Sequence record: OL770310
Length of the DNA: 64,000 bases
Origin: Escherichia phage PSa2
Reading direction: 5' to 3' (one strand)
Positions 30,593 through 42,900 of the stretch are shown piece after piece (the first letter of the stretch is position 1; each line of letters starts with the position of its first letter). Under the pieces are notes generated by a model. It saw only the letters and a list, made by a program, of their open reading frames with translations. It made no database searches and had not been told where the DNA came from. A program made the position numbers and the translations under genes.

Positions 30593-30668
30593 TGGCTGGA
30601 GAAGGAGGAATCGAACCTACCATTAACGGAGTCAAAGGCCGTTGTGCTAACCGTTACACTACTCTCCA
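30593..30668 (-). tRNA. tRNA-Gln (UUG)
   Basis: hand-folded: loop CUUUGAC, 3' end CCAGCCA as in bacterial tRNA-Gln. Confidence 0.55.
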
Positions 30669-30674
30669 AGTATT

Positions 30675-30750
30675 TGGCTGGGATGCCACGGATCGAACGT
30701 GGAACCTTCGGAGTCAGAGGCCGACGATCTGCCAATTGATCTACATCCCA
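30675..30750 (-). tRNA. tRNA-Gln (CUG)
   Basis: hand-folded: acceptor 7/7, loop CUCUGAC. Confidence 0.55.
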
Positions 30751-30758
30751 ATAATTTT

Positions 30759-30959
30759 TTATTCTTCAGGAACCGTGGCTATTGGATCTGGTTCTTCTAG
30801 ACGTTTACCATTATGATCGACACGAATAATGCCACAACCTTCACAGATTACAACAGCACCATAGCCTTCTTTAACTTCGGCTTCTGTAATCAGACCAGAT
30901 AAATCACCAGTATCTTTGCCCCACATATCAATAGAGCATTCTTTGCAGAAATCAGCCAT
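30759..30959 (-). CDS. zinc-ribbon-like small protein (CxxC...CxxC)
   Basis: 66-aa ORF. Confidence 0.4.
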   Translation of the reverse strand: MADFCKECSIDMWGKDTGDLSGLITEAEVKEGYGAVVICEGCGIIRVDHNGKRLEEPDPIATVPEE

Positions 30960-30983
30960 ATTTTATTTCCTATTTAAGTTAAT

Positions 30984-31058
30984 TGGTGCATCCTCAGGGA
31001 ATCGAACCCCGATCGTAAAGTTCGTAGCTTTACATTCTTTCCGTTGAAATAAGGACGC
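30984..31058 (-). tRNA. tRNA-Arg (ACG)
   Basis: hand-folded: anticodon arm UAAAG-CUACGAA-CUUUA. Confidence 0.6.
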
Positions 31059-31064
31059 AATATT

Positions 31065-31141
31065 TGGGGTGGCTAGTGGAATTCGAATCCACATAGGCCT
31101 GATTCACAATCAGGATCATTAACCAATTATGATATAGCCAC
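31065..31141 (-). tRNA. tRNA-His (GUG)
   Basis: hand-folded: anticodon arm CCUGA-UUGUGAA-UCAGG, discriminator C. Confidence 0.6.
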
Positions 31142-31502
31142 AATTGAAAACTCGTAGGGTTAGCGAAACCATCCTCAAATAGTATTTTCTAGAATACTAA
31201 TCAAGTTATCTCCTATTGCACGAAGCTCAAGACGAGTACGAATTTTCAATTGTGGCGGCTCTCCGAAACTCATCACACTAACAACTAGTTGATTACACCT
31301 GGATTCTCGCCCAGGAAATTCTCTAGAAAGGTGCACCGTTACTCTTTGAGCCATTGAATATCAAGAAGCAGAAGGACTTGAACCTTCATGAGATAGACCA
31401 TTTATCTCAGCCTCGTTTTCGGGTATCTTATGAGGAGTGGATGTTCCCCTTACGCCCTTTAGGAAGCCCCGTCTACCGATTCCGGCATACTTCAAGAATT
31501 AT

Positions 31503-31706
31503 TTAAAACTTGTAACCTTCGGGAACCTTATCCTTAACACCAATATACTCAGCTTGGATGTAGTATGTTGGCACATGATCTTTAGGTAGATCTTTATTTA
31601 CATCATTAACTTCCATCAAGGCTTCGGCCTCGGTGTCAAATGGACGATACCAGATTTCACCACCCCAGCCACGTTCGCTTTCGGTATACTTAACAATGTG
31701 TTTCAT
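31503..31706 (-). CDS. hypothetical protein
   Basis: track ORF 31503-31757 trimmed to internal Met so it does not overlap the tRNA. Confidence 0.4.
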   Translation of the reverse strand: MKHIVKYTESERGWGGEIWYRPFDTEAEALMEVNDVNKDLPKDHVPTYYIQAEYIGVKDKVPEGYKF

Positions 31707-31724
31707 AAGGTTTTCCTTATTAGT

Positions 31725-31814
31725 TGGAGGAAGGTAATGGAGTCGAACCATCACCATATCGCTACAGCGGGCAGGTTTTCAAGACCTGTTACATACCACT
31801 ATGTCCTACCTTCC
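31725..31814 (-). tRNA. tRNA-Ser (UGA), long variable arm
   Basis: hand-folded: acceptor 7/7, loop CUUGAAA, ~90 nt. Confidence 0.55.
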
Positions 31815-31821
31815 AGTTGTT

Positions 31822-31914
31822 TGGCGGAAGAAGAGAGATTCGAACTCTCAAGCCTGCTTTCACAAGTCAGCCACTTTCCAAGCGGTTTTCGTCACCTAAT
31901 CGATTTGCTCTTCC
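31822..31914 (-). tRNA. type II tRNA, anticodon tentatively GGA (Ser)
   Basis: acceptor and T-arm (GAGAG-TTCGAAT-CTCTC) clear; anticodon arm assignment uncertain. Confidence 0.4.
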
Positions 31915-32088
31915 GTAGATCTTAGGATTAAATCATAAACCTCATTAGCGCATACTGGAAGTATGAGATTGTACATCTTTTGGTCGTACCTCTGACCATA
32001 TTCTATAAACACATACTCTTTAGTTAATGTATTAATAGCCAACCAGATATCAGTTACAGGAGTTTTCATCGTGATTTAATCCAATGTT

Positions 32089-32169
32089 TGGTAGGGATGG
32101 AGGGACTCGAACCCACACCCGAAGACTAGAACCTAAATCTAGCGCGTCTGCCAATTTCGCCACATCCCC
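32089..32169 (-). tRNA. tRNA-Leu (UAG)
   Basis: hand-folded: anticodon arm CUAGA-UUUAGGU-UCUAG. Confidence 0.45.
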
Positions 32170-32176
32170 ATTTTAT

Positions 32177-32395
32177 TTAGTTAGAAATAAATAATAATCC
32201 CGCAACAATGGAACCTACGCCACTGAATACCATTATCAGCATAGCTTCTAAGCTGATAAAGCGGACAGTATATGGAGCGCCCCAAGAATAATCAGTAAAG
32301 AAAGTTTTCTTTTCTTTAGCTAAATCTTTAACAATTCTAAAATAGATAGCTAGTGCTAAAGCTGCAAGAACTACAGAGGCTGCTAAGAATACCAT
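32177..32395 (-). CDS. small membrane protein
   Basis: 72-aa ORF, two hydrophobic segments. Confidence 0.4.
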   Translation of the reverse strand: MVFLAASVVLAALALAIYFRIVKDLAKEKKTFFTDYSWGAPYTVRFISLEAMLIMVFSGVGSIVAGLLFISN

Positions 32396-32415
32396 ATTAT
32401 TTCCTTAATTTGTTT

Positions 32416-32490
32416 GGTGGAGTCACTCAGAATTGAACTGAGTTCCACTGCTTGCAAGGCAGTAAGTTTAACCAAATAACCTATGACCCC
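32416..32490 (-). tRNA. tRNA-Ala (UGC)
   Basis: hand-folded: G3-U70 pair present, loop CUUGCAA. Confidence 0.55.
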
Positions 32491-32496
32491 GAATTT

Positions 32497-32570
32497 TGGT
32501 GGAGAAAGAGGGAGTTGAACCCTCGTCTTCTGCGTGCAAAGCAGATGTTCTACCATTAAACTATATCCCC
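32497..32570 (-). tRNA. tRNA, anticodon UGC by simplest fold (Ala-like, second copy)
   Basis: hand-folded: anticodon arm UCUGC-UUUGCAC-GCAGA, G3-U70; one acceptor mismatch. Confidence 0.45.
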
Positions 32571-32925
32571 AAAATCTTTAAGTTTACTAAGGCTATTAGC
32601 TCGGTGTGCGTACTGCCCTCAGACATTAGCCAGTAGAGAACAGCCGCTCTTCACAAACCCGATACACTATTCAGTTGCCGCTGAATCTAGTGGACTAATC
32701 TAGAACTTATTGCAAAGTATCCCCCGCCATTAGGGGTCTAATTGCAACTGTGCTTGTTGGCAGCCAGTCCTAGGTCGAGCTAATACCTTAGTGAACTAAA
32801 TTGATGGATATCAGACTAATTTTGCTACGGCGTTTATCCTGAGGATCTCTTTTTCGGTAGCTCTGCTAGTGTAGACGTCATACACCTGATATCTAGGCAG
32901 CTATTTTCACATCAATTTATATAAA

Positions 32926-32955
32926 TATTATAACAAGAAATTAAGCATCAAGCAA
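32926..32955 (-). promoter_or_regulatory. sigma70 early promoter
   Basis: promoter family motif. Confidence 0.5.
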
Positions 32956-33307
32956 GTACATTTTTAGCAATTTCTTGTAGTTCCTTAACGTCACTAACGA
33001 AAAGGTAGTCAGAGCTTCCAGAGTGCATACTCTGCATAACCACACCACCATCCGGTGCATCTTCTTTCAAGGTAAGTCCTAACCAGAACTCGGCAAAACT
33101 AGGTGTTACCTCACCTTGACTTGCCTTGAACACATCGCCTTCTGTGATCTCTTGACCAGTGGAGAGTCCCATGTATGGTACGTTCAGATCAATATCTTTG
33201 TAGAACTCAGCTAGATCTTGCTCGAAATCCCAACCTTTAGAGATAGCGAACTCCATTGTTACATGACCGAAATAGCCTTGAACCTTGCTTGATAATTGCA
33301 TTTGCAA
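32948..33307 (-). CDS. hypothetical protein
   Basis: 119-aa ORF. Confidence 0.5.
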   Translation of the reverse strand: MQMQLSSKVQGYFGHVTMEFAISKGWDFEQDLAEFYKDIDLNVPYMGLSTGQEITEGDVFKASQGEVTPSFAEFWLGLTLKEDAPDGGVVMQSMHSGSSDYLFVSDVKELQEIAKNVLA

Positions 33308-33326
33308 TTCCTTATTTTGAGTTAAT

Positions 33327-33400
33327 TGGTACTCGGTGATAGAATCGAACTATCGCAACCGCCGTGTAAAGACGGGGTTCTCCCATTAAACTAACCGAGC
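33327..33400 (-). tRNA. tRNA-Val (UAC)
   Basis: hand-folded: T-arm GATAG-TTCGATT-CTATC, loop UUUACAC. Confidence 0.55.
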
Positions 33401-33404
33401 AATT

Positions 33405-33482
33405 TGGTGGATTGCCTGGGATTCGAACCCAGAACTGACGGATTAAAGGTCCGCTACTCTTATCCAGTTGAGCTAGCAATCC
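33405..33482 (-). tRNA. tRNA-Lys (UUU)
   Basis: hand-folded: acceptor 7/7, loop CCUUUAA (C at position 33). Confidence 0.5.
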
Positions 33483-33868
33483 AATTTTTCTACTAATAAT
33501 TTAAAAGCATCTAGTACAGGTACTTCAAACCATTCTCCAGATACTCTATAATCTTTAAGAAGATTATGTAATTCTTTCTCTGTACGTCTTTTATCCGACG
33601 AAAATCTGAAATGGTATAGCTTGTAGTCTCTATTAGGTGAATAAGTTTGATAACTTGTTAACCTCTCATTCACATCTATAGTCATACCTATTTTATACAT
33701 GCCTGGCCATGCTGGATTACCAATTACATATACAAAACCTTCCGTTATAGGTATTTTATGCTCCCTTTTATACTTTAAGAGATTTAAGGCTGCCATTCGA
33801 TAACAGAATCTAAACTCTGAAGTTTTTAACTTACCTTCTTTACCTGAAATTTCGTTATATTTGCTCAT
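33473..33868 (-). CDS. T5orf172 / GIY-YIG-like domain protein
   Basis: 131-aa ORF; GFVYVIGNPAWPGMYKIGMT ... GEWFE pattern. Confidence 0.55.
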   Translation of the reverse strand: MSKYNEISGKEGKLKTSEFRFCYRMAALNLLKYKREHKIPITEGFVYVIGNPAWPGMYKIGMTIDVNERLTSYQTYSPNRDYKLYHFRFSSDKRRTEKELHNLLKDYRVSGEWFEVPVLDAFKLLVEKLDC

Positions 33869-34122
33869 ATAAGCTCTTATGAGCTTATCATCTATAATGA
33901 AGTTATCAGGAAGGTTTAAGGCAGCTAAAAACTTTATTAATTAGCATAGACTTCTTTAATAGAGTAAACTTTTAAGTAAGGATGATTAATACCAAATTCC
34001 GCCATCACTTCATTTTCATCTTTACCGTAATAGGCTAATGGATACTTCTTACGATCTTTACTAGAACGTAAATCACTTACTTTTAAACGAAATAATTTCA
34101 TTTCGAAATCCTTCTATTAAAT

Positions 34123-34200
34123 TGGAAGCGGGTGCAGGAATCGAACCTACCTCTTTCTAGCTTATGAGACTAGAGATCTCTACCAGAGATCTAACCCGCA
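34123..34200 (-). tRNA. tRNA-Met (CAU)
   Basis: hand-folded: D-arm GATC/GATC, loop CUCAUAA; one acceptor mismatch. Confidence 0.5.
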
Positions 34201-34206
34201 ATTGTT

Positions 34207-34284
34207 TGGTCTCCGTGGGAGGATTTGAACCCACGACCCTATCGCCCCAAACGAAACGCTCTGGCCAAACTGAGCTACACGGAG
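34207..34284 (-). tRNA. tRNA-Pro (UGG)
   Basis: hand-folded: acceptor 7/7, loop UUUGGGG. Confidence 0.55.
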
Positions 34285-34317
34285 AATATTCTTTGTTAAC
34301 TCACTTTATAAAATATA

Positions 34318-34346
34318 TTATACAGAGAATTAAGCTAAATAGCAAC
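34318..34346 (-). promoter_or_regulatory. sigma70 early promoter
   Basis: promoter family motif. Confidence 0.5.
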
Positions 34347-34593
34347 TACATTTTTTAATAAATTTACTTATTAGGTAAGTCACCGAGCTATCAACTCATG
34401 CTAGCGAGAAAGTTTGCGAGACCTTCTTTAAGTACTAGAACACACCCGCCGATGTGTCGGACTTACTTAATAAGTAAACTTTCGTTTACTTACACCTACC
34501 TGGTCGGGAGGATTTTCAGCGACTAGAACCGGCCGGAAACTCATCGCCTTGTTTATCTAGGAGTCCGTTCTCTAGGAAGCAGAAACCTAAATT

Positions 34594-34667
34594 TGGTGCG
34601 GTCGGAGGGAATCGAACCCTCAACTTTTGGTTGGCAACCAAAAATTATACCTTTTAACTACGAACGC
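34594..34667 (-). tRNA. tRNA-Gly (GCC)
   Basis: hand-folded: anticodon arm UUUGG-UUGCCAA-CCAAA. Confidence 0.55.
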
Positions 34668-34669
34668 AT

Positions 34670-34880
34670 AATAAGTCAATCTAGGCAGGACTTGAACCTG
34701 CTATCACTTGTGCGGATTTACGAGAACCATTCTTTCACTCGAATCGAACGAGCTTCTACCCTCGGCAAGCTGGTGTCCCCTCTCCACCACGCTAGAATGA
34801 TAATTAATGCCTGCTCCTTTGAATCAAGAAGTCCACCCCGGACTTTGGGTCTTTGCAGTACATCACGCTGCTCTGATGTT
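34670..34880 (-). other. tRNA-like segment: two canonical T-arm motifs but no pairing acceptor stems found
   Basis: minus-strand GCAGG-TTCAAGT-CCTGC and GCTCG-TTCGATT-CGAGT without matching 5' acceptor strands. Confidence 0.3.
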
Positions 34881-34956
34881 TGGTACACCCACTAGGACTT
34901 GAACCTAGAACCCTCCGCTTAAGAGGCGGTAGCTCTAACCATTGAGCTATGGATGT
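34881..34956 (-). tRNA. tRNA, anticodon CUU by simplest fold (Lys-like)
   Basis: hand-folded: T-arm CTAGG-TTCAAGT-CCTAG, loop CUCUUAA. Confidence 0.45.
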
Positions 34957-35032
34957 ATTATTATGTTTTGCAGTGCTCTAAATATAGACACTTCCCACGC
35001 GGTGGTTATCTATACCAGCGTCCTGCAAAAAT

Positions 35033-35109
35033 TGGCGCGACCGATGGGATTCGAACCCACATTTTCTCCCGTGACAGGGGAGTACCATTACCAAGCCAGC
35101 CCCGATCGC
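35033..35109 (-). tRNA. tRNA-Asp (GUC)
   Basis: hand-folded: anticodon arm CUCCC-CUGUCAC-GGGAG. Confidence 0.6.
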
Positions 35110-35118
35110 ATAATTTAT

Positions 35119-35304
35119 TTACTCAGTTTTGAGTTTTTCGATAGCTTCCTCAACCTCTTTTAGAGCTTCACGACGGGCATTCTGTTGCTGCATATCTTGA
35201 ATTAATGTCAGTTTTTGGTTTTCAATTTCTTGATCCCAAACCTTAATATTATTAATCAGACTATCACGATCAGCTTCTAGTCGAGCAATTGCACGAGTTG
35301 TCAT
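35119..35304 (-). CDS. small coiled-coil protein
   Basis: 61-aa ORF. Confidence 0.4.
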   Translation of the reverse strand: MTTRAIARLEADRDSLINNIKVWDQEIENQKLTLIQDMQQQNARREALKEVEEAIEKLKTE

Positions 35305-35405
35305 ATCTATTTCCTCAGTTATTAATGAAAATGGTATCTGTGACTGAATTCAATATCAGTAATGATAGCTGGTTGGCTACCGGTTTACTTAACTCTACAC
35401 AGAAT

Positions 35406-35488
35406 ATGGCGGGCCGTGTAGGATTCGAACCTACGTTGTCTTTCGACATGGATTAACAGTCCACCGCCAAACCGCTTGGCTAACGACC
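35406..35488 (-). tRNA. tRNA with anticodon GUU (Asn) and an unusual 13-nt variable arm
   Basis: hand-folded: anticodon arm GUGGA-CUGUUAA-UCCAU; variable hairpin GTCGAAAGAC. Confidence 0.4.
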
Positions 35489-35495
35489 CTAAAAT

Positions 35496-35571
35496 TTGGA
35501 CGACCGCATGAGATTCGAACTCACATAAGGAGGTTTTGCAGGCCTCCGCCTAAGCCATTCAGCCAACGGTC
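35496..35571 (-). tRNA. tRNA, anticodon tentatively GCA (Cys), enlarged anticodon loop
   Basis: acceptor and T-arm clear; anticodon stem GGAGG/CCTCC encloses a 9-nt loop. Confidence 0.35.
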
Positions 35572-35750
35572 GAGTTATCTTGCTTTTCGAGATTAGTAAA
35601 CTCTAGATCTTTAGAATGTCCTATAGATCTAGCATAATAGCCATCTCCAGCATCATAGCCTGATTTACCACACTTACACATCTTAAACTCGCGTAAACGT
35701 GTAAATATATGTTCAGAACCACAACACTTAAATTTAACTAGCTTTTTCAT
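35559..35750 (-). CDS. Cys-rich small protein
   Basis: 63-aa ORF; 3' end overlaps tRNA, true extent uncertain. Confidence 0.35.
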   Translation of the reverse strand: MKKLVKFKCCGSEHIFTRLREFKMCKCGKSGYDAGDGYYARSIGHSKDLEFTNLEKQDNSTVG

Positions 35751-35989
35751 CCAACACGCTCCGGCAGGTCTTCCAGTTTATATTCAGTAGCCACATTAGC
35801 AGCATCTAGTAACAAACCCATATGTTTAAGAATTCTAGTGATAGCCTCGCCTTCTGCTTCTTCTACAAAGCAGCGTAGTTGCATGAAGTCAATACCACCA
35901 TCCATACCAGAGAAAATGTTAAGTAAGCGAAGCATTACCAGCTTACGTTCTTTCAATTCTTGTTCTGTCATGTTGCTTCTCCAGTTCAA
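35747..35989 (-). CDS. hypothetical protein
   Basis: 80-aa ORF. Confidence 0.45.
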   Translation of the reverse strand: MNWRSNMTEQELKERKLVMLRLLNIFSGMDGGIDFMQLRCFVEEAEGEAITRILKHMGLLLDAANVATEYKLEDLPERVG

Positions 35990-36000
35990 TTTATGAAATA

Positions 36001-36030
36001 ATTATACAGAACTTTAAGCGGTTAAGCAAC
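36001..36030 (-). promoter_or_regulatory. sigma70 early promoter
   Basis: promoter family motif. Confidence 0.55.
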
Positions 36031-36309
36031 TACATTTTTCAGAAATATGATGCCTTTCTTTTTCTTCTTATACTTCCACGTTAACGGGTTCTGTCTATTA
36101 TGAACGCTTGAGATCTTTGTCTCGTCAAAGTTCTTCAATACCATGTAATCACAGGCCAACTGTTCTAGTGGAATGTGATCTCCGTCAAAAGCGTAAACGT
36201 AAGGCTGTTGACTGGCACGATAATGATAGACTTTGTTAATTCTGCGTTTCAGTGACTTATCCGCACAGTAAATAAAGAAGTTTTCAGGATGCATCAGCAT
36301 CTCCTTCAA
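36022..36309 (-). CDS. hypothetical protein
   Basis: 95-aa ORF. Confidence 0.45.
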   Translation of the reverse strand: MKEMLMHPENFFIYCADKSLKRRINKVYHYRASQQPYVYAFDGDHIPLEQLACDYMVLKNFDETKISSVHNRQNPLTWKYKKKKKGIIFLKNVVA

Positions 36310-36311
36310 AT

Positions 36312-36386
36312 TGGTGCACCCTGTTCGAATTGAACGAACCTCTCAAGCTCTTCAGGCAAGCGCTAATCCATCTCAGCTAAAGGTGC
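36312..36386 (-). tRNA. tRNA-Phe (GAA)
   Basis: hand-folded: T-arm GTTCG-TTCAATT-CGAAC, loop CUGAAGA; weak anticodon stem. Confidence 0.45.
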
Positions 36387-36392
36387 AAATAT

Positions 36393-36470
36393 TGGCAAAC
36401 CTACTAGGACTCGAACCTAGACCGTACGGTTTTGGAGACCGACATGCTGTCCAGTAACACTCTAGGAATG
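36393..36470 (-). tRNA. tRNA-Trp (CCA) candidate
   Basis: anticodon arm UCGGU-CUCCAAA-ACCGU resembles bacterial tRNA-Trp; acceptor pairing poor, 5' end uncertain. Confidence 0.35.
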
Positions 36471-36477
36471 CAGAAAT

Positions 36478-36554
36478 TGGCGTCCTGTGCGGGGATCGAA
36501 CCCGCAAATCCTACCTTGAAAGGGTAGTGACTTTACCAGTTTGTCTAACAGGAC
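36478..36554 (-). tRNA. tRNA-Glu (UUC)
   Basis: hand-folded: acceptor 7/7, T-arm GCGGG-TTCGATC-CCCGC, loop CUUUCAA. Confidence 0.6.
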
Positions 36555-36561
36555 TTAAATT

Positions 36562-36652
36562 TGGTGTTGGATGATGGAGTCGAACCACCCGAGACCCTTC
36601 CGAGTCGGCAGATTTACAGTCTGCTTCGCTACCTCTACGATACTAATCCAAC
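36562..36652 (-). tRNA. tRNA-Tyr (GUA), long variable arm
   Basis: hand-folded: acceptor 7/7, anticodon arm GCAGA-CUGUAAA-UCUGC. Confidence 0.6.
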
Positions 36653-36777
36653 ATATTTGAATGAAAAGTAAGTCGGTTAAACTCAAGGTGGAATATTTCA
36701 GGATTTCCTGACTTTACCCATAAAAGTAACTCGCTTAGTTACTTCTCATTCAGATATGTTTTCCAAATTAGATAACT

Positions 36778-36807
36778 ATTATATCAAGTTTTGAAGGACT
36801 GAGCAAG
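36778..36807 (-). promoter_or_regulatory. sigma70 early promoter
   Basis: promoter family motif, degenerate. Confidence 0.4.
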
Positions 36808-36842
36808 TCAAATTTTAAAGAACTTGCTCAGTGCTACATCAG

Positions 36843-37118
36843 TTACTCGAAGCTAGGAGTGACACTCAGTTTGAATGGAAGCTCGAACACTTCTTCATAA
36901 TCATCATTGAGCGTAATTACACGACCTTCTAGCTTAGTCATGGTGATTTCGATATCAGCCCTTGCATCAGGAGCCATACCAGCTTCCACACATTTAGCTT
37001 TAACTTCCGGCAGAAGTTCTACATCGTAGAAATAAAGCCATTCAATCTCACCTTCCCAGCCACCCCAGGATTTACAAACAGCACTTTCAACACCAGTTGC
37101 AGTAACACGTTTTGACAT
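36843..37118 (-). CDS. hypothetical acidic protein
   Basis: 91-aa ORF. Confidence 0.5.
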   Translation of the reverse strand: MSKRVTATGVESAVCKSWGGWEGEIEWLYFYDVELLPEVKAKCVEAGMAPDARADIEITMTKLEGRVITLNDDYEEVFELPFKLSVTPSFE

Positions 37119-37148
37119 TCGTTAACTCCTTCATCAATTTATATAACT

Positions 37149-37179
37149 ATTATAACAGAAATCTTAAGTAAAAAGCAAG
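37149..37179 (-). promoter_or_regulatory. sigma70 early promoter
   Basis: promoter family motif. Confidence 0.5.
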
Positions 37180-37208
37180 TACATTTTTAAAATTTCTGCT
37201 TGGAGGAG

Positions 37209-37460
37209 TTAAACTCCTGATTCTTCAGCCAGATCAAGCCCAACCAACGTGATTGCCATAATAGCCGCGCCATGTTCTTTCTCTCCTAGCTCTTTGGCTT
37301 GAGTGAGAATATTAAGGAATTGCTTTTGAAAATCTGCAACTTCTTCTGTCATGCCTGCTTCAGCAATGATTCCTTTCAGCATAAAGCGTTGTGCCGTAAT
37401 TTCAGAATTAGCCATTTGTTTTCTCCAGTTGTTTAGAATGTAAGCCAAACTTAGGATCAT
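37209..37460 (-). CDS. hypothetical protein
   Basis: 83-aa ORF. Confidence 0.45.
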   Translation of the reverse strand: MILSLAYILNNWRKQMANSEITAQRFMLKGIIAEAGMTEEVADFQKQFLNILTQAKELGEKEHGAAIMAITLVGLDLAEESGV

Positions 37461-37566
37461 AGCGATCGTAAGTAGTACCGTTAGTTGAAGCCTTGATGCT
37501 ATGAAAACGACAGTACATAAATTTACGTAGTGCTTTCTTAATAGCTTTCATTTTATTTCCTTAATT

Positions 37567-37643
37567 TGGTAGGGGTGGTGGGATTCGAACCCACAAAACC
37601 TGAATTTTAAGTCCAGTACCTATGCCAATTCGATTACACCCCC
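37567..37643 (-). tRNA. class I tRNA with anticodon UAA by simplest fold (Leu-decoding)
   Basis: hand-folded: T-arm GTGGG-TTCGAAT-CCCAC, anticodon arm CUGGA-CUUAAAA-UUCAG, short variable loop. Confidence 0.4.
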
Positions 37644-37651
37644 ATGTAATC

Positions 37652-38005
37652 TTAGCGAATCTCTAAACCCTGGAAATATCGAGGGAATGGAGAGCCAACT
37701 TCAAAATTGATGCCCCAATTAAGTTCAACGAGTTCAGATTTATTAAGATCTAGGCCATTACCTTCAAAGATATAGCCGTAAACCGCAGGGAACATAGCTG
37801 CTAGATCTTCCATATCGGAATGAGCATTGTGTTCTTCACGGAACTGCTCAAACTCTTCAAAGAACTTTTCTAGGAAGAACTCAGGTACGATGAACGTTAC
37901 CACATCAGTAGAATCATCGGTACGATACACCGTAGCTTGGAACAAGCCAACACCTAAAAGGTTTATTGCCGGAGTAGTAAAAATATCCATCTTAGCCTCG
38001 CTCAA
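37652..38005 (-). CDS. hypothetical protein
   Basis: 117-aa ORF. Confidence 0.5.
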   Translation of the reverse strand: MSEAKMDIFTTPAINLLGVGLFQATVYRTDDSTDVVTFIVPEFFLEKFFEEFEQFREEHNAHSDMEDLAAMFPAVYGYIFEGNGLDLNKSELVELNWGINFEVGSPFPRYFQGLEIR

Positions 38006-38177
38006 TGTCTAGACAAATTGCATATTCAGGGTTGATACCAGTACCTTTACATGTAGGACATTCCCATTCTCTACAGAAAATATCCCCAGGTTCTGCATCA
38101 TCCTGCCTACCACCACCATGACAATCCTTACACCGACATTCTTCTAAGGCTTTCTTCATTTCATAGAATCTAGACAT
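37992..38177 (-). CDS. zinc-finger-like small protein
   Basis: 61-aa ORF; CRCKDCHG ... CPTCKGTG. Confidence 0.4.
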   Translation of the reverse strand: MSRFYEMKKALEECRCKDCHGGGRQDDAEPGDIFCREWECPTCKGTGINPEYAICLDIERG

Positions 38178-38194
38178 ATAGTCTCCTAGTTAAT

Positions 38195-38272
38195 TGGTGG
38201 CTCCCGGAGGATTCGAACCTACCTACCTTTCGCTTATGAGGCGACGGCTCATACCAAATGAGCTTGAGAACC
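38195..38272 (-). tRNA. tRNA, anticodon CAU (Met / fMet / Ile2 type)
   Basis: hand-folded: D-arm GCTC/GAGC, loop CUCAUAA. Confidence 0.5.
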
Positions 38273-38277
38273 AAATT

Positions 38278-38371
38278 TGGAGGAAGATGCCAGATTCGAA
38301 CTGGCACACCGTGTCTCCACAGCTACTGGCTGTTTAGCAAACAGCTCCCTTACCTTTAGGGTTAATCTTCC
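38278..38371 (-). tRNA. tRNA-Ser (GCU), long variable arm
   Basis: hand-folded: acceptor 7/7, anticodon arm GCUGU-UUGCUAA-ACAGC. Confidence 0.5.
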
Positions 38372-38386
38372 GAATTTATGAATATA

Positions 38387-38414
38387 TTATACAGAAAATT
38401 TCGGCATTAAGCAA
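38387..38414 (-). promoter_or_regulatory. sigma70 early promoter
   Basis: promoter family motif. Confidence 0.55.
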
Positions 38415-38422
38415 GTGAAATT

Positions 38423-38719
38423 TTACTGAACACTGCACTGATACACTTGTTTGATACGTGTCACTGACTTCTTAGTTGGATTGATAGAAGAACCTTGCCA
38501 CCAACGTGATTCTGAGCTGAGAACAGCACCAGGAACAGCTTGTTCTTTTGGCAGAACAATATCAAAACATTGCTCACCCATATTATCTTTAATGTGTGAC
38601 CAAATATCCAAAGTAAATCGTTCTAACTTATTACAAACCTGAACTTGACAAAGTTCCTGTTGCGGAGCAGCAAATACAGAAGTAGATACTAGAGTCAATG
38701 CAAGTACAGTGCGTTTCAT
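38423..38719 (-). CDS. secreted small protein (signal peptide)
   Basis: 98-aa ORF. Confidence 0.45.
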   Translation of the reverse strand: MKRTVLALTLVSTSVFAAPQQELCQVQVCNKLERFTLDIWSHIKDNMGEQCFDIVLPKEQAVPGAVLSSESRWWQGSSINPTKKSVTRIKQVYQCSVQ

Positions 38720-42089: not shown

Positions 42090-42099
42090 TTTAGGTATT

Positions 42100-42900
42100 T
42101 TTAAGAACTCTCGTAAAAGTCCTTAAAGATACCCGACGGTAGGTAGGGTCAGCCCCCTCAGATTAAGCTCTGCAGCCCTTCCGTCAGACAATATCTTCCA
42201 GTTTAAGTCAAGGTGACTTTGTGGTTATGTTCTCCGTATGTGAAGAACTCGGTTAGGCTTAGGTCATGACTCCCAGCCTACTGCTGCCGCTCAACAGGAA
42301 TTATCGCGAATTACCTGTACTATTGGGCACCATTAGTGACATCTCTCATGTCAGCGTTTCCCACTCTCATATTCACGCGGTCTGTTAGAATCGCACCTCC
42401 GATTTTCGATGCGAAGCTGGATGCCTAGTCTCAGGTTAAACGGGGTACACACTAGGCAGTGATCCCGAGTTCCGAGTTTGGTTGAGGCCGTCAGGTTTCC
42501 TCGTGGTTTAGCTGTTTCGATTCTAACCTAATACTGATCAGGCGGCGTACCTCCTGAACCGTCATAGTATGTACTCCAGCAGCGAATGCTTATCCGGTAT
42601 AAGCCCGAGTTATCCGATTCTTTCCAGAAGGAGCAGTGAAGCTCAATGTCAGCCTGTGAGCATCTGGCAGTGTTATCACATAAGTCAGTTCGACACCCCA
42701 CTAACATAAACTAGAGAAGAGTTTACGAGATTTCGGGACAGCTCCCGAGTTTTCCACAGATTTTCAGTTCCCTATCAATAGCAATAAGCGTTAGCTCGTA
42801 GCCTCTCTCAGAGTACTTACTAGTCTCCAACTCACCGACTCTATTCAGTGGAATAGCTATCCTACTAGGAATCACTAAACTCACTCAGCGTAATCGGCTC
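42100..42900 (-). other. ORF-free, GC-richer 0.8-kb transcribed leader (candidate structured RNA)
   Basis: no ORF of 60 aa or more on either strand; between promoter at 42914-42942 and tRNA-Arg. Confidence 0.35.

What the first reader, a model, noticed from the sequence alone, without database searches (positions are those of the whole stretch)
34670..34880. tRNA-like segment with canonical T-arms but no recoverable acceptor stems
Between tRNA-Gly(GCC) and the CUU tRNA there are two good minus-strand T-arm motifs (GCAGG-TTCAAGT-CCTGC at 34685-34701 and GCTCG-TTCGATT-CGAGT near 34741-34757), but I could not find 5' strands that pair with the 3' acceptor sequences and no CCA follows. These could be tRNA pseudogenes, split or intron-containing tRNAs, or tRNA-like processing signals.
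Basis: seen in the sequence. Interest (0 to 1): 0.4.

Follow-up and report, generated by a model that had tools for sequence, protein, structure and literature searches.

The report
Phage T5 "RNA2" tRNA-like stable RNA
The two stray T-arms belong to a single ~121-nt tRNA-shaped RNA, the counterpart of phage T5's long-annotated "RNA2" of unknown function, in which the anticodon loop is replaced by a highly conserved 55-nt folded insert.

Summary
The window is a T5-like phage (Epseptimavirus, 99.8% to Salmonella phage SB13). Both T-arm motifs are real. They belong to one gene, window 34798..34674 on the minus strand, not to two broken tRNAs. It is 89.6% identical to the T5 feature "rna2 / RNA2: tRNA-like stable RNA with unknown functions" (AY543070; also annotated in BF23).

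A comparison of 24 distinct homologs supports a cloverleaf frame by compensatory changes: acceptor, D-arm, anticodon-stem equivalent and T-arm. The anticodon loop is replaced by a 55-nt insert. The insert holds the second T-arm, an invariant GAAAGAA, a hairpin with loop CNCGUAA, and a covarying loop-to-junction pair (a pseudoknot).

The insert is far more conserved than the frame. It also occurs, without an evident acceptor stem, in the tRNA clusters of T4-like Acinetobacter phages. ARAGORN and Rfam find no tRNA or other family here. No CCA is encoded in this phage, but some homologs encode it.

The most likely reading is a tRNA scaffold that secures processing and stability for a functional RNA payload. 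The function itself remains unknown. The 80 nt at 34799-34880 are an unstructured spacer.

The parts
34674..34798 (-). Whole RNA2 ortholog (121 nt to the discriminator, plus a 3-nt tail). RNA position p corresponds to window coordinate 34799-p.
   Evidence: Model R1 scores 140.3 bits, E = 5e-30. blastn gives 89.6% identity to T5 rna2 over 124 of 125 nt. T5 and BF23 annotate it as 'RNA2, tRNA-like stable RNA'.
34792..34798 (-). P1, acceptor stem 5' strand AUUCUAG (RNA positions 1-7).
   Evidence: Pairs with 34678-34684. All 7 pairs show changes on both sides across homologs, e.g. GGGUACU/GGUAUCC, GACUUUG/CAAAGUC, AGACAAU/AUUGUCU, ACUGACC/GGUCAGU.
34771..34789 (-). P2, D-arm equivalent: stem UGGUG/CACCA (positions 10-14 and 24-28) with the 9-nt loop GAGAGGGGA.
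   Evidence: All 5 pairs covary: UGGUU/AACCA, CGGUU/AACCG, UGCCG/CGGCA, UGACU/AGUCA, AGCUC/GAGCU.
34766..34770 (-). P3, anticodon-stem equivalent, 5' strand GCUUG (positions 29-33).
   Evidence: Pairs with 34706-34710. 100% of cells are paired and all 5 pairs covary. It is also kept in the acceptor-less Acinetobacter-phage forms.
34711..34765 (-). 55-nt insert (payload) in place of the anticodon loop (positions 34-88): J CCGAGGGUAGAA, P4, GAAAGAA, P6, CA.
   Evidence: Column conservation over 13 lineage representatives: P4 loop 0.98, GAAAGAA 0.99, P6 0.90. The frame stems score 0.40-0.58.
34737..34753 (-). P4, internal T-arm-like hairpin GCUCG-UUCGAUU-CGAGU (positions 46-62).
   Evidence: 3 of 5 pairs covary (CG/UA/AU and CG/GC). 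The loop is near-invariant.
34713..34729 (-). P6 hairpin UGGUU-CUCGUAA-AUCCG (positions 70-86).
   Evidence: Two invariant G-C pairs, end pairs that vary on one side and stay paired, and a conserved U.U that becomes U-A in two distinct rows (three phages). There is no double-sided covariation, so this helix is provisional.
34755..34756 (-). Junction nucleotides G43-A44 that pair with C77-U76 (window 34722-34723) in the P6 loop: a pseudoknot contact.
   Evidence: Pair 44-76 is A-U in 16 sequences, U-A in 4, C-G in 2 and G-C in 1, with one exception that carries an indel. The neighbouring pair G43-C77 is invariant. The near-identical-context phages AB1I1M-1 and AB2I2 differ by a double change, U-A to C-G.
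34706..34710 (-). P3 3' strand CAAGU (positions 89-93), followed by the 4-nt variable region GAUA (34702-34705).
34685..34701 (-). P5, the true T-arm GCAGG-UUCAAGU-CCUGC (positions 98-114).
   Evidence: 3 of 5 pairs covary. It stacks directly on the acceptor 3' strand, as in tRNA.
34677..34684 (-). P1 3' strand CUAGAUU (34678-34684) and the discriminator G (34677).
   Evidence: Followed by ACUUAUUAU, then tRNA-Gly(GCC) starting at 34667. No CCA is encoded here. Homologs encode A-CCA (Pantoea AAS21, Erwinia KEY), U-CCA (Klebsiella vB_Kpn_3) and G-CCA (Salmonella OSY-STA).

Best explanation
Window 34798..34674 (minus strand) encodes the ortholog of bacteriophage T5 RNA2. It is a single stable non-coding RNA built on a tRNA frame: a 7-bp acceptor stem, a D-arm, a 5-bp anticodon-stem equivalent, a 4-nt variable region and a T-arm. 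The anticodon loop is replaced by a 55-nt structured insert. The insert contains a second T-loop hairpin, an invariant GAAAGAA linker, and a hairpin whose loop (CNCGUAA) base-pairs back to the junction just 5' of the T-loop hairpin, forming a pseudoknot.

Shown here: homology to the annotated T5 and BF23 RNA2, the covarying helices, the covarying tertiary pair, and the much stronger conservation of the insert than of the frame.

Inferred from established tRNA biology: it is co-transcribed with the flanking minus-strand tRNAs. RNase P cuts its 5' end because the 12-bp acceptor/T-arm stack plus T-loop is a minimal RNase P substrate. RNase P cleavage of tRNA-Gly 10 nt downstream leaves a short trailer that exonucleases trim. 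The host CCA-adding enzyme may then complete the 3' end, as for T4 tRNAs that lack an encoded CCA.

Inferred as most likely (about 0.5): the frame acts as a natural 'tRNA scaffold' that gives processing and nuclease resistance, and the conserved pseudoknotted insert is the functional payload.

Speculative (about 0.2-0.25): the payload binds or titrates a host or phage factor that normally recognises tRNA. Candidates include a tRNA-directed defence nuclease, a modification enzyme or an aminoacyl-tRNA synthetase. It is not a decoding tRNA.
For: Identity and context: the window is 99.8% identical to Epseptimavirus SB13. The 125-nt unit is 89.6% identical to T5 rna2, annotated 'tRNA-like stable RNA with unknown functions' in AY543070 and AJ604530, with the same neighbours as in BF23, namely RNA2 followed by tRNA-Gly(GCC).

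Structure: 92.7-93.5% of cells are paired, against 26-48% when the partners are slid, and 0 of 500 shuffles reach the observed measures. Every pair of P1, P2 and P3 has changes on both sides, as do 3 of 5 pairs in each of P4 and P5. Pair 44-76 takes all four Watson-Crick forms.

tRNA frame: model R1 aligns ordinary tRNAs over positions 1-124 with the insert deleted, at 20-33 bits.

Payload: conservation is 0.90-0.99 in the insert core against 0.40-0.58 in the frame stems. P3, the insert and the T-arm recur without a clear acceptor stem between tRNA genes of T4-like Acinetobacter phages 133, Acj9, ZZ1, AB1I1M-1 and AB2I2, and on two ~167-kb contigs. Some homologs encode a 3' CCA.
Against: No expression data for this phage were available. 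'Stable RNA' rests on the depositors' annotation of T5 and BF23, and I could not read the primary papers. The alignments used for counting were fitted to the model, although every helix was first seen in raw sequences. About half of the rows are near-identical T5-likes, so the independent lineages number about 10-13. P6 has no double-sided covariation. No binding partner or phenotype is known. T5 variants with deletions spanning the locus (30661-38625) are viable (PMC11464382), so the RNA is dispensable in the laboratory. The acceptor stem and discriminator are not conserved in sequence, which argues against a conserved aminoacylation identity.
Confidence: 0.85

Rival explanations
1. Two tandem decayed tRNA genes (pseudogenes) left over from turnover of the tRNA cluster, with no function of their own.
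For: Two T-arm motifs about 50 nt apart without their own acceptor stems. No tRNA is called. tRNA clusters of T5-like phages do gain and lose genes: BF23 and T5 differ in tRNA content.
Against: There is one nested structure, and the 5' acceptor strand pairs across both T-arms with full covariation. Length is constant at 119-121 nt. About 25 nt of the core are near-invariant across Demerecviridae and Straboviridae. A long-range tertiary pair covaries. Pseudogenes would not keep compensatory changes.
Confidence: 0.03
2. An intron-containing tRNA gene: the 55-nt insert is removed to give a functional tRNA.
For: The insert lies exactly between the two strands of the anticodon-stem equivalent. Some homologs encode CCA. 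The P6 loop CUCGUAA reads like an anticodon loop with CGU.
Against: Removing the insert leaves a stem with no loop. The insert is the most conserved part, and the 'U33' position takes all four bases and covaries with position 44. At 55 nt the insert is far too small for a group I intron, and no intron family appears in Rfam at E <= 10. Enterobacteria are not known to have a bulge-helix-bulge splicing endonuclease (established knowledge). T5 RNA2 is annotated as a 125-nt stable RNA, which includes the insert. The phage already carries tRNAs for all 20 amino acids.
Confidence: 0.04
3. A pure processing or punctuation element: a tRNA-like fold whose only role is to direct RNase P and 3'-end cleavage of the polycistronic early transcript, with the released RNA being a by-product.
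For: The frame has every feature of an RNase P substrate. The element sits between tRNAs and small ORFs in one transcription direction. In the Acinetobacter phages it fills the whole spacer between two tRNAs.
Against: A punctuation signal needs only an acceptor and T-arm. This does not explain a near-invariant 55-nt insert with its own covarying pseudoknot, nor why the acceptor-less forms keep precisely the insert.
Confidence: 0.1
4. A protein-coding gene: the 56-aa ORF at 34718-34888 annotated as 'hypothetical protein' in SB13, Seabear and others.
For: Automatic annotations call a CDS here. The ORF exists with a GTG start.
Against: The ORF overlaps tRNA-Lys(CUU) and runs through the RNA. The Seabear annotators themselves note 'not a real gene?'. 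The ORF depends on the 80-nt spacer, which is missing or replaced in many relatives. Substitutions in the region follow base-pairing, not codons.
Confidence: 0.02

Closest known systems
Bacteriophage T5 / BF23 RNA2 (gene rna2; GenBank AY543070 32959-33083, AJ604530 5701-5825)
   Same: Orthologous: 89.6% identity, the same length, the same place in the tRNA cluster (followed by tRNA-Gly(GCC) as in BF23), and the same predicted fold.
   Different: Small differences only. The D-stem closing pair is G-C instead of U-A, and the D-loop is one nucleotide longer. Pair 2-71 is U.U here, U.G in T5 and U-A in most relatives. The 3' tail is ACU here and ACA in T5. An 80-nt spacer lies upstream here. The records closest to this window do not annotate the RNA; they show either nothing or a spurious CDS.
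Canonical tRNA (Rfam RF00005)
   Same: 7-bp acceptor stem, 2-nt connector, D-arm with a GG-containing loop, 5-bp anticodon-stem equivalent, 4-nt variable region, 5-bp T-stem with a UUCRANY loop, and a discriminator. The family model cross-hits real tRNAs.
   Different: There is no 7-nt anticodon loop and no anticodon; 55 nt sit in its place. The D-stem has 5 bp. Position 8 is C instead of U. No CCA is encoded here. The score is 12.5 bits against a gathering score of 29, and ARAGORN calls nothing.
Phage T4 species 1 / species 2 RNAs (rnaC, rnaD)
   Same: Small stable RNAs of unknown function inside a phage tRNA cluster, with a 3' T-arm plus an acceptor-like stem and no encoded CCA. T4 rnaC and T5 RNA2 both continue with ACA.
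   Different: Not homologous by my tests. R1 gives only 17 bits (E = 0.11) on the rnaC 3' end. The shared 10-mer UCGAUUCGAG is the 5' strand of the acceptor-like stem in rnaC, where it covaries G-C to A-U across Tevenvirinae. It is not a T-loop hairpin there. The RNA2 core motif is absent.
Engineered 'tRNA scaffold' for recombinant RNA expression (Ponchon and Dardel 2007; cited from my own knowledge, not checked here)
   Same: A foreign structured RNA is inserted in place of the anticodon loop of a tRNA, so that the chimera is processed and stabilised like a tRNA. The topology is the same as RNA2.
   Different: That is a laboratory design. Here it is a natural, conserved gene. Whether stability is the selective reason has not been tested.
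tmRNA tRNA-like domain and bacterial Y-RNA-like YrlA
   Same: tRNA mimicry (acceptor and T-arm, or T-arm and D-arm) joined to a non-tRNA functional module.
   Different: ARAGORN finds no tmRNA, and Rfam gives only 7.3 bits on the T-arm. There is no tag reading frame and no conserved G3.U70. No YrlA match at E <= 10. In YrlA the RNA termini lie in the Ro-binding helix, not in the acceptor stem (from my own knowledge).

Membership tests
T5 RNA2 family (rna2 of T5/BF23) | Sequence homology over the full length to the annotated rna2 | tested here: met
   89.6% identity over 124 of 125 nt. blastn hits lie on the rna2 features of AY543070, NC_005859 and AJ604530.
T5 RNA2 family (rna2 of T5/BF23) | Same position and orientation inside the early tRNA gene cluster | tested here: met
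   Minus strand between tRNA-Lys/Asp and tRNA-Gly(GCC)/RNAIV/tRNA-Pro, as in BF23.
T5 RNA2 family (rna2 of T5/BF23) | Accumulates as a stable ~125-nt RNA in infected cells | not testable with these tools
   Only the depositors' note 'stable RNA' is available. There are no RNA data for this phage.
Canonical tRNA | 7-bp acceptor stem closing the molecule | tested here: met
   34798-34792 pairs with 34684-34678 at 6 of 7 positions, and the stem covaries.
Canonical tRNA | T-arm with T-loop adjacent to the acceptor 3' strand, and a D-arm with GG | tested here: met
   P5 at 34701-34685 and P2 at 34789-34771.
Canonical tRNA | 7-nt anticodon loop with U33 and an anticodon | tested here: not met
   P3 encloses 55 nt. 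The only 7-nt loop (P6) has a variable second position that pairs with position 44.
Canonical tRNA | Recognised by standard tRNA detectors | tested here: not met
   ARAGORN finds none. Rfam tRNA scores 12.5 bits, below the gathering score of 29.
Canonical tRNA | 3' CCA, encoded or added, and aminoacylation | tested here: inconclusive
   Not encoded here (G-ACU). Encoded in the AAS21, KEY, Kpn_3 and OSY-STA homologs. Addition and charging cannot be tested in silico.
Intron-containing tRNA (group I or bulge-helix-bulge) | Recognisable intron core or splice motif, and exon remnants that rebuild an anticodon loop | tested here: not met
   No intron family at E <= 10. The insert is 55 nt, and the flanking stem leaves no loop residues.
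tmRNA | tRNA-like domain plus a tag reading frame and pseudoknots; G3.U70 | tested here: not met
   ARAGORN finds no tmRNA. Rfam gives 7.3 bits on the T-arm only. G3.U70 occurs only in the Serratia phage homolog.
T4 rnaC/rnaD | Homology to T4 species 1 or species 2 RNA | tested here: not met
   R1 gives 17 bits, E = 0.11, on the generic 3' part only. Alignment of the rnaC family shows a different architecture.
Any Rfam 15 family | Score at or above the gathering threshold | tested here: not met
   Nothing lies above threshold in 34668-34805. The best hits are chance-level.

The most novel reading that the evidence does not exclude
RNA2 is the founding member of a phage RNA class that has no Rfam family: a pseudoknotted, T-loop-containing ~55-nt module. 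It is carried either on a full tRNA scaffold (Demerecviridae and some environmental phages) or as an acceptor-less inter-tRNA RNA (T4-like Acinetobacter phages). It acts in trans on a tRNA-recognising host component, for example as a decoy or sponge against tRNA-directed immunity, or as a binder of the tRNA elbow, rather than being a by-product of tRNA-cluster evolution.
Probability: 0.2. Interest if true: 0.75.

Novelty: already known. Interest (0 to 1): 0.4.

Why it matters
T5-like phages carry several abundant small RNAs: RNAI, RNAIII, RNA1, RNA2, RNA3, RNAIV, RNA2H and RNAX. Their functions are still annotated as unknown in the T5 record. They are invisible to standard annotation, which gives no feature or a false CDS here. 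They are also absent from Rfam.

This analysis shows that RNA2 is a tRNA scaffold carrying a deeply conserved pseudoknotted payload, and that the payload is shared with T4-like Acinetobacter phages. That gives a concrete, testable object: defined ends, helices, a covarying tertiary pair to mutate, and a payload to use as bait. Phage-encoded tRNAs are now known to counter tRNA-cleaving defences such as PARIS and retron Eco7 (PMC11464382, PMC10644984).

For genome annotation, the practical point is that this locus should be labelled as a non-coding RNA, not as a hypothetical protein or a tRNA pseudogene.

Tried and rejected
1. Alternative helix P3a (GCGAGGG pairing with UUCUCGU), which the single-sequence fold suggested. 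One pair is broken in 10 of 19 sequences. The variable loop base does not covary with its P3a partner, but covaries with position 44 instead. Rejected in favour of P6 plus the pseudoknot.

2. The P6 loop as a mimic of the tRNA-Thr(CGU) anticodon loop. The 'U33' position takes all four bases, the first three loop bases are engaged in the pseudoknot, and one homolog has CAU. Disfavoured.

3. Homology to T4 rnaC. The shared UCGAUUCGAG...CGUAAG..CCG looked suggestive, but the rnaC-family alignment places the 10-mer in a covarying acceptor-like stem. Rejected.

4. Homology to T5 RNA1, another tRNA-like stable RNA. R1 gives only 11 bits. Rejected.

5. A host target or mimic by sequence. The insert has no blastn match in 5,426 complete E. 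coli genomes at E <= 10.

6. Rfam at permissive thresholds finds nothing.

7. Searches for more distant relatives. The viral, metagenome and genome pattern scans added only L034, L037, L051 and L158. The looser pattern returned chance hits, which R1 rejected.

8. The 80-nt spacer as a structured element or terminator. The fold z-score is -0.40, and the only terminator-like hit is on the wrong strand.

9. Literature. No accessible paper discusses RNA2 function.

Full report
WHAT THE WINDOW IS. ARAGORN finds 29 tRNA genes, all on the minus strand between 29.2 and 42.1 kb. A 1-kb stretch around the finding is 99.8% identical to Salmonella phage vB_SenS_SB13 and about 99% identical to phage EPS7, both Epseptimavirus, Demerecviridae. 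The window is therefore the early tRNA-gene region of a T5-like phage.

CHECKING THE OBSERVATION. Read on the minus strand, GCAGG-TTCAAGT-CCTGC lies at 34701..34685, exactly as reported. GCTCG-TTCGATT-CGAGT lies at 34753..34737, 4 nt from the reported position. A strict T-arm scan finds 27 sites in the 64-kb window against 0.29 expected from shuffles. All are on the minus strand in the tRNA region. Neither ARAGORN nor the Rfam tRNA model calls a tRNA between tRNA-Gly(GCC) (34594-34667) and tRNA-Lys(CUU) (34881-34956). The Rfam tRNA model scores 12.5 bits against a gathering score of 29. No CCA follows the 3' T-arm. So the motifs, the missing CCA and the failure of standard scans are all confirmed. 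The claim that no 5' acceptor strand can be found is not confirmed, as shown below.

WHAT IT IS HOMOLOGOUS TO. blastn of the interval shows that only minus-strand positions about 34799..34675 are conserved throughout T5-like phages. The first 80 nt (34880..34801) behave as a separate module: they are present in Klebsiella T5-like phages and absent in others. In the curated T5 record AY543070 and the BF23 record AJ604530, the conserved unit is annotated as misc_RNA 'rna2 / RNA2: tRNA-like stable RNA with unknown functions', 125 nt. The window copy is 89.6% identical to it. The same T5 record lists further stable RNAs of unknown function: RNAI, RNAIII, RNA1, RNA3, RNAIV, RNA2H and RNAX. Records closest to the window annotate nothing here, or a 56-aa 'hypothetical protein' that overlaps tRNA-Lys. 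The Seabear annotators themselves doubted that ORF.

STRUCTURE. I collected homologs from several sources:
- GenBank phages: T5, BF23, several Tequintavirus and Epseptimavirus, Serratia phage Kamaji, Pantoea phage AAS21, Erwinia phage KEY, Klebsiella phage vB_Kpn_3 and Salmonella phage OSY-STA.
- IMG/VR: L034.
- Metagenomes: L051.
- T4-like Acinetobacter phages (133, Acj9, ZZ1, AB1I1M-1, AB2I2) and two ~167-kb contigs (L037, L158).

The raw sequences already show a closing stem that changes completely between lineages while staying complementary: AUUCUAG/CUAGAAU, GGGUACU/GGUAUCC, GACUUUG/CAAAGUC, AGACAAU/AUUGUCU and ACUGACC/GGUCAGU. In the window it is 34798-34792 with 34684-34678, with one U.U mismatch.

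I aligned 17 full-length forms (A1) and built a covariance model using only the five helices seen by eye (R1). I then realigned 20 and later 25 sequences to it (A3 and A4). On A4, 92.7% of cells form standard pairs, against 29-48% when the 3' partners are slid by 1-3 columns. None of 500 column shuffles reaches the observed values. Every pair of P1 (7 bp), P2 (5 bp) and P3 (5 bp) shows changes on both sides, as do 3 of 5 pairs in each of P4 and P5. The caveat is that these alignments are fitted to the model and about half of the rows are close T5-like relatives. There are roughly 10-13 independent lineages.

The resulting fold is a tRNA cloverleaf:
- P1: acceptor stem.
- A 2-nt connector.
- P2: D-arm with a GGGG loop.
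- P3: in the place of the anticodon stem.
- A 4-nt variable region.
- P5: T-arm stacked on the acceptor stem.
- The discriminator base.
Consistent with this, R1 aligns ordinary tRNAs from end to end once its 54-nt internal block is skipped, at 20-33 bits.

Where the 7-nt anticodon loop should be there are 55 nt (window 34765-34711). They comprise a 12-nt strand ending in AGGGUAGAA, the second T-arm P4 (34753-34737), an invariant GAAAGAA, a hairpin P6 (UGGUU-CUCGUAA-AUCCG, 34729-34713) and CA.

An all-against-all column search found one extra covarying pair outside the model. The base after the invariant G43 pairs with the second base of the P6 loop: A-U in 16 sequences, U-A in 4, C-G in 2 and G-C in 1. 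The single exception carries an extra nucleotide at that spot. The pair lies next to the invariant pair G43-C77. Two Acinetobacter phages with almost identical context (AB1I1M-1 and AB2I2) differ by the double change U-A to C-G. The P6 loop is therefore tied back to the junction just 5' of P4, which makes a pseudoknot.

A competing helix suggested by single-sequence folding (P3a) fails the same test. P6 itself has no double-sided covariation and remains provisional.

WHERE THE SELECTION ACTS. Over 13 lineage representatives, column conservation is 0.40-0.58 in the frame stems P1-P3. It is 0.98 in the P4 loop, 0.99 in GAAAGAA and 0.90 in P6. The Acinetobacter-phage and L037/L158 forms keep P3, the whole insert and the T-arm, but have no convincing acceptor stem. 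In phage 133 the element fills the entire 105-nt spacer between tRNA-Gly and tRNA-Cys. Acceptor sequences and discriminators (G, A, U) differ between lineages, and G3.U70 occurs only in the Serratia phage. Several homologs do encode CCA: A-CCA in AAS21 and KEY, U-CCA in vB_Kpn_3 and G-CCA in OSY-STA. The window (G-ACU) and T5 (G-ACA) do not.

HOW IT MOST LIKELY WORKS. What is shown: this is one gene for a tRNA-shaped RNA with a conserved, pseudoknotted insert. It is orthologous to an RNA that the T5 and BF23 depositors describe as stable.

What is inferred from established tRNA biology: it is co-transcribed with its neighbours. RNase P matures its 5' end, because an acceptor/T-arm stack of 12 bp with a T-loop is a sufficient substrate. 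RNase P cleavage at tRNA-Gly, 10 nt downstream, leaves a 9-nt trailer for exonucleases. The host CCA-adding enzyme may then finish the 3' end.

My interpretation is that the tRNA frame serves as a natural scaffold for processing and stability, and the insert is the working part. What the insert does is not known. I consider binding or titration of a tRNA-recognising host factor the most attractive guess, at about 0.2. tRNA-directed defences are common, and T5 tRNAs are known to counter them (PMC11464382; PMC10644984). There is no direct evidence for this. T5 variants deleted for 30661-38625 are viable, so any role is conditional.

RIVALS. Two decayed tRNAs, an intron-containing tRNA, a bare processing signal and the annotated 56-aa ORF are each weighed in the rival-explanations section. 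All four are contradicted or left incomplete by three facts: the single nested covarying fold, the insert being more conserved than the frame, and the absence of any intron signature.

COMPARISON WITH KNOWN THINGS. The element is a member of the T5 RNA2 family. Homology and synteny are met, while stability was not testable here. It works like a tRNA in its frame but fails tRNA membership, because it has no anticodon loop and is not detected by tRNA models. It is not tmRNA. It is not related to T5 RNA1. It is not related to T4 rnaC/rnaD. A tempting shared 10-mer turned out to be the covarying acceptor-like strand in the rnaC family. No Rfam 15 family covers it. Its topology is the same as the engineered 'tRNA scaffold' used to express recombinant RNAs. 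That comparison comes from my own knowledge.

VERDICT. The finding is real and resolves to an RNA gene that is already annotated in T5 and BF23, not to broken tRNAs. This analysis adds a comparative secondary structure with a pseudoknot contact, the observation that the insert rather than the frame is under the strongest constraint, the occurrence of the insert in T4-like Acinetobacter phages, and encoded CCA in some homologs. Interest is moderate: the object is known and dispensable in the laboratory, but its function is a long-standing blank that is now easy to test.

Noticed in passing
window 31822-31914 (minus strand): A 93-nt class-II tRNA-like gene directly upstream of tRNA-Ser(UGA). It has acceptor GGAAGAG/UUCUUCC, G-CCA, T-arm GAGAG-UUCGAAU-CUCUC and an anticodon-loop-like UUGGAAA (GGA). 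ARAGORN and the Rfam tRNA threshold both miss it (R1 19 bits; Rfam tRNA-Sec model 24 bits). It occupies the position of T5 tRNA-Ser2(GGA) but has no blastn match to it, and its D-arm and anticodon stem are irregular.
   Followed up: partly
window 31353-31496, 31143-31248, 32651-32785, 34410-34461, 35332-35404, 42090-42365 (all minus strand): Homologs of the other T5 'stable RNAs with unknown functions': RNA1 (80.7%, tRNA-like, T-arm at 31371-31387), RNAIII (95%), RNA2H (partial, 78%), RNAIV (partial, 81%), RNA3 (94.5%, next to tRNA-Asn) and RNAX (partial). No tool called any of them here. RNAI has no match.
   Followed up: partly
window 34799-34880 (minus strand): An 80-nt spacer between tRNA-Lys(CUU) and RNA2. 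It is 95-97.5% identical to a segment in Klebsiella T5-like (Sugarlandvirus) phages. It is absent in some Epseptimaviruses and replaced by unrelated sequence in T5. It has no significant fold. It behaves like a small mobile or recombining module.
   Followed up: partly
window 34718-34888 (minus strand): The 56-aa GTG ORF that public records annotate as a hypothetical protein overlaps tRNA-Lys(CUU) and most of RNA2. It is almost certainly a false gene call.
   Followed up: yes
L034 8968-9097 and 9106-9232 (IMG/VR 164-kb contig): About 5 kb downstream of its RNA2 homolog, this contig has two more tRNA-like elements with large internal inserts and identical T-arms (GUGGG-UUCGAGU-CCCAC). The first ends in A-CCA, and its insert contains the motifs CUCGUAAAUC and CCGUAAAAC. 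The second contains AAAAUGGUUAUCGUCAUUUGG, reminiscent of the RNA2 core. They may be diverged paralogs. ARAGORN calls no tRNA in this 10-kb locus.
   Followed up: partly
L032 ~1299-1397 (Acinetobacter phage Acj9), and similar sequence after the RNA2-like element in L167/L168: Immediately after the short-type RNA2 element lies an unannotated class-II tRNA-like sequence: GGAAAGU...CUUUCC-G-CCA with the loop CUGCUAA, which would give anticodon GCU (Ser).
   Followed up: no
L039 2909-3047 (T4 rnaC) and L171-L173: The T4 species 1 RNA family has an acceptor-like 8-bp stem with two conserved U.U mismatches and a covarying G-C to A-U pair. In the sequences examined, the stem is followed by ACA. The same ACA tail follows T5 RNA2.
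   Followed up: partly
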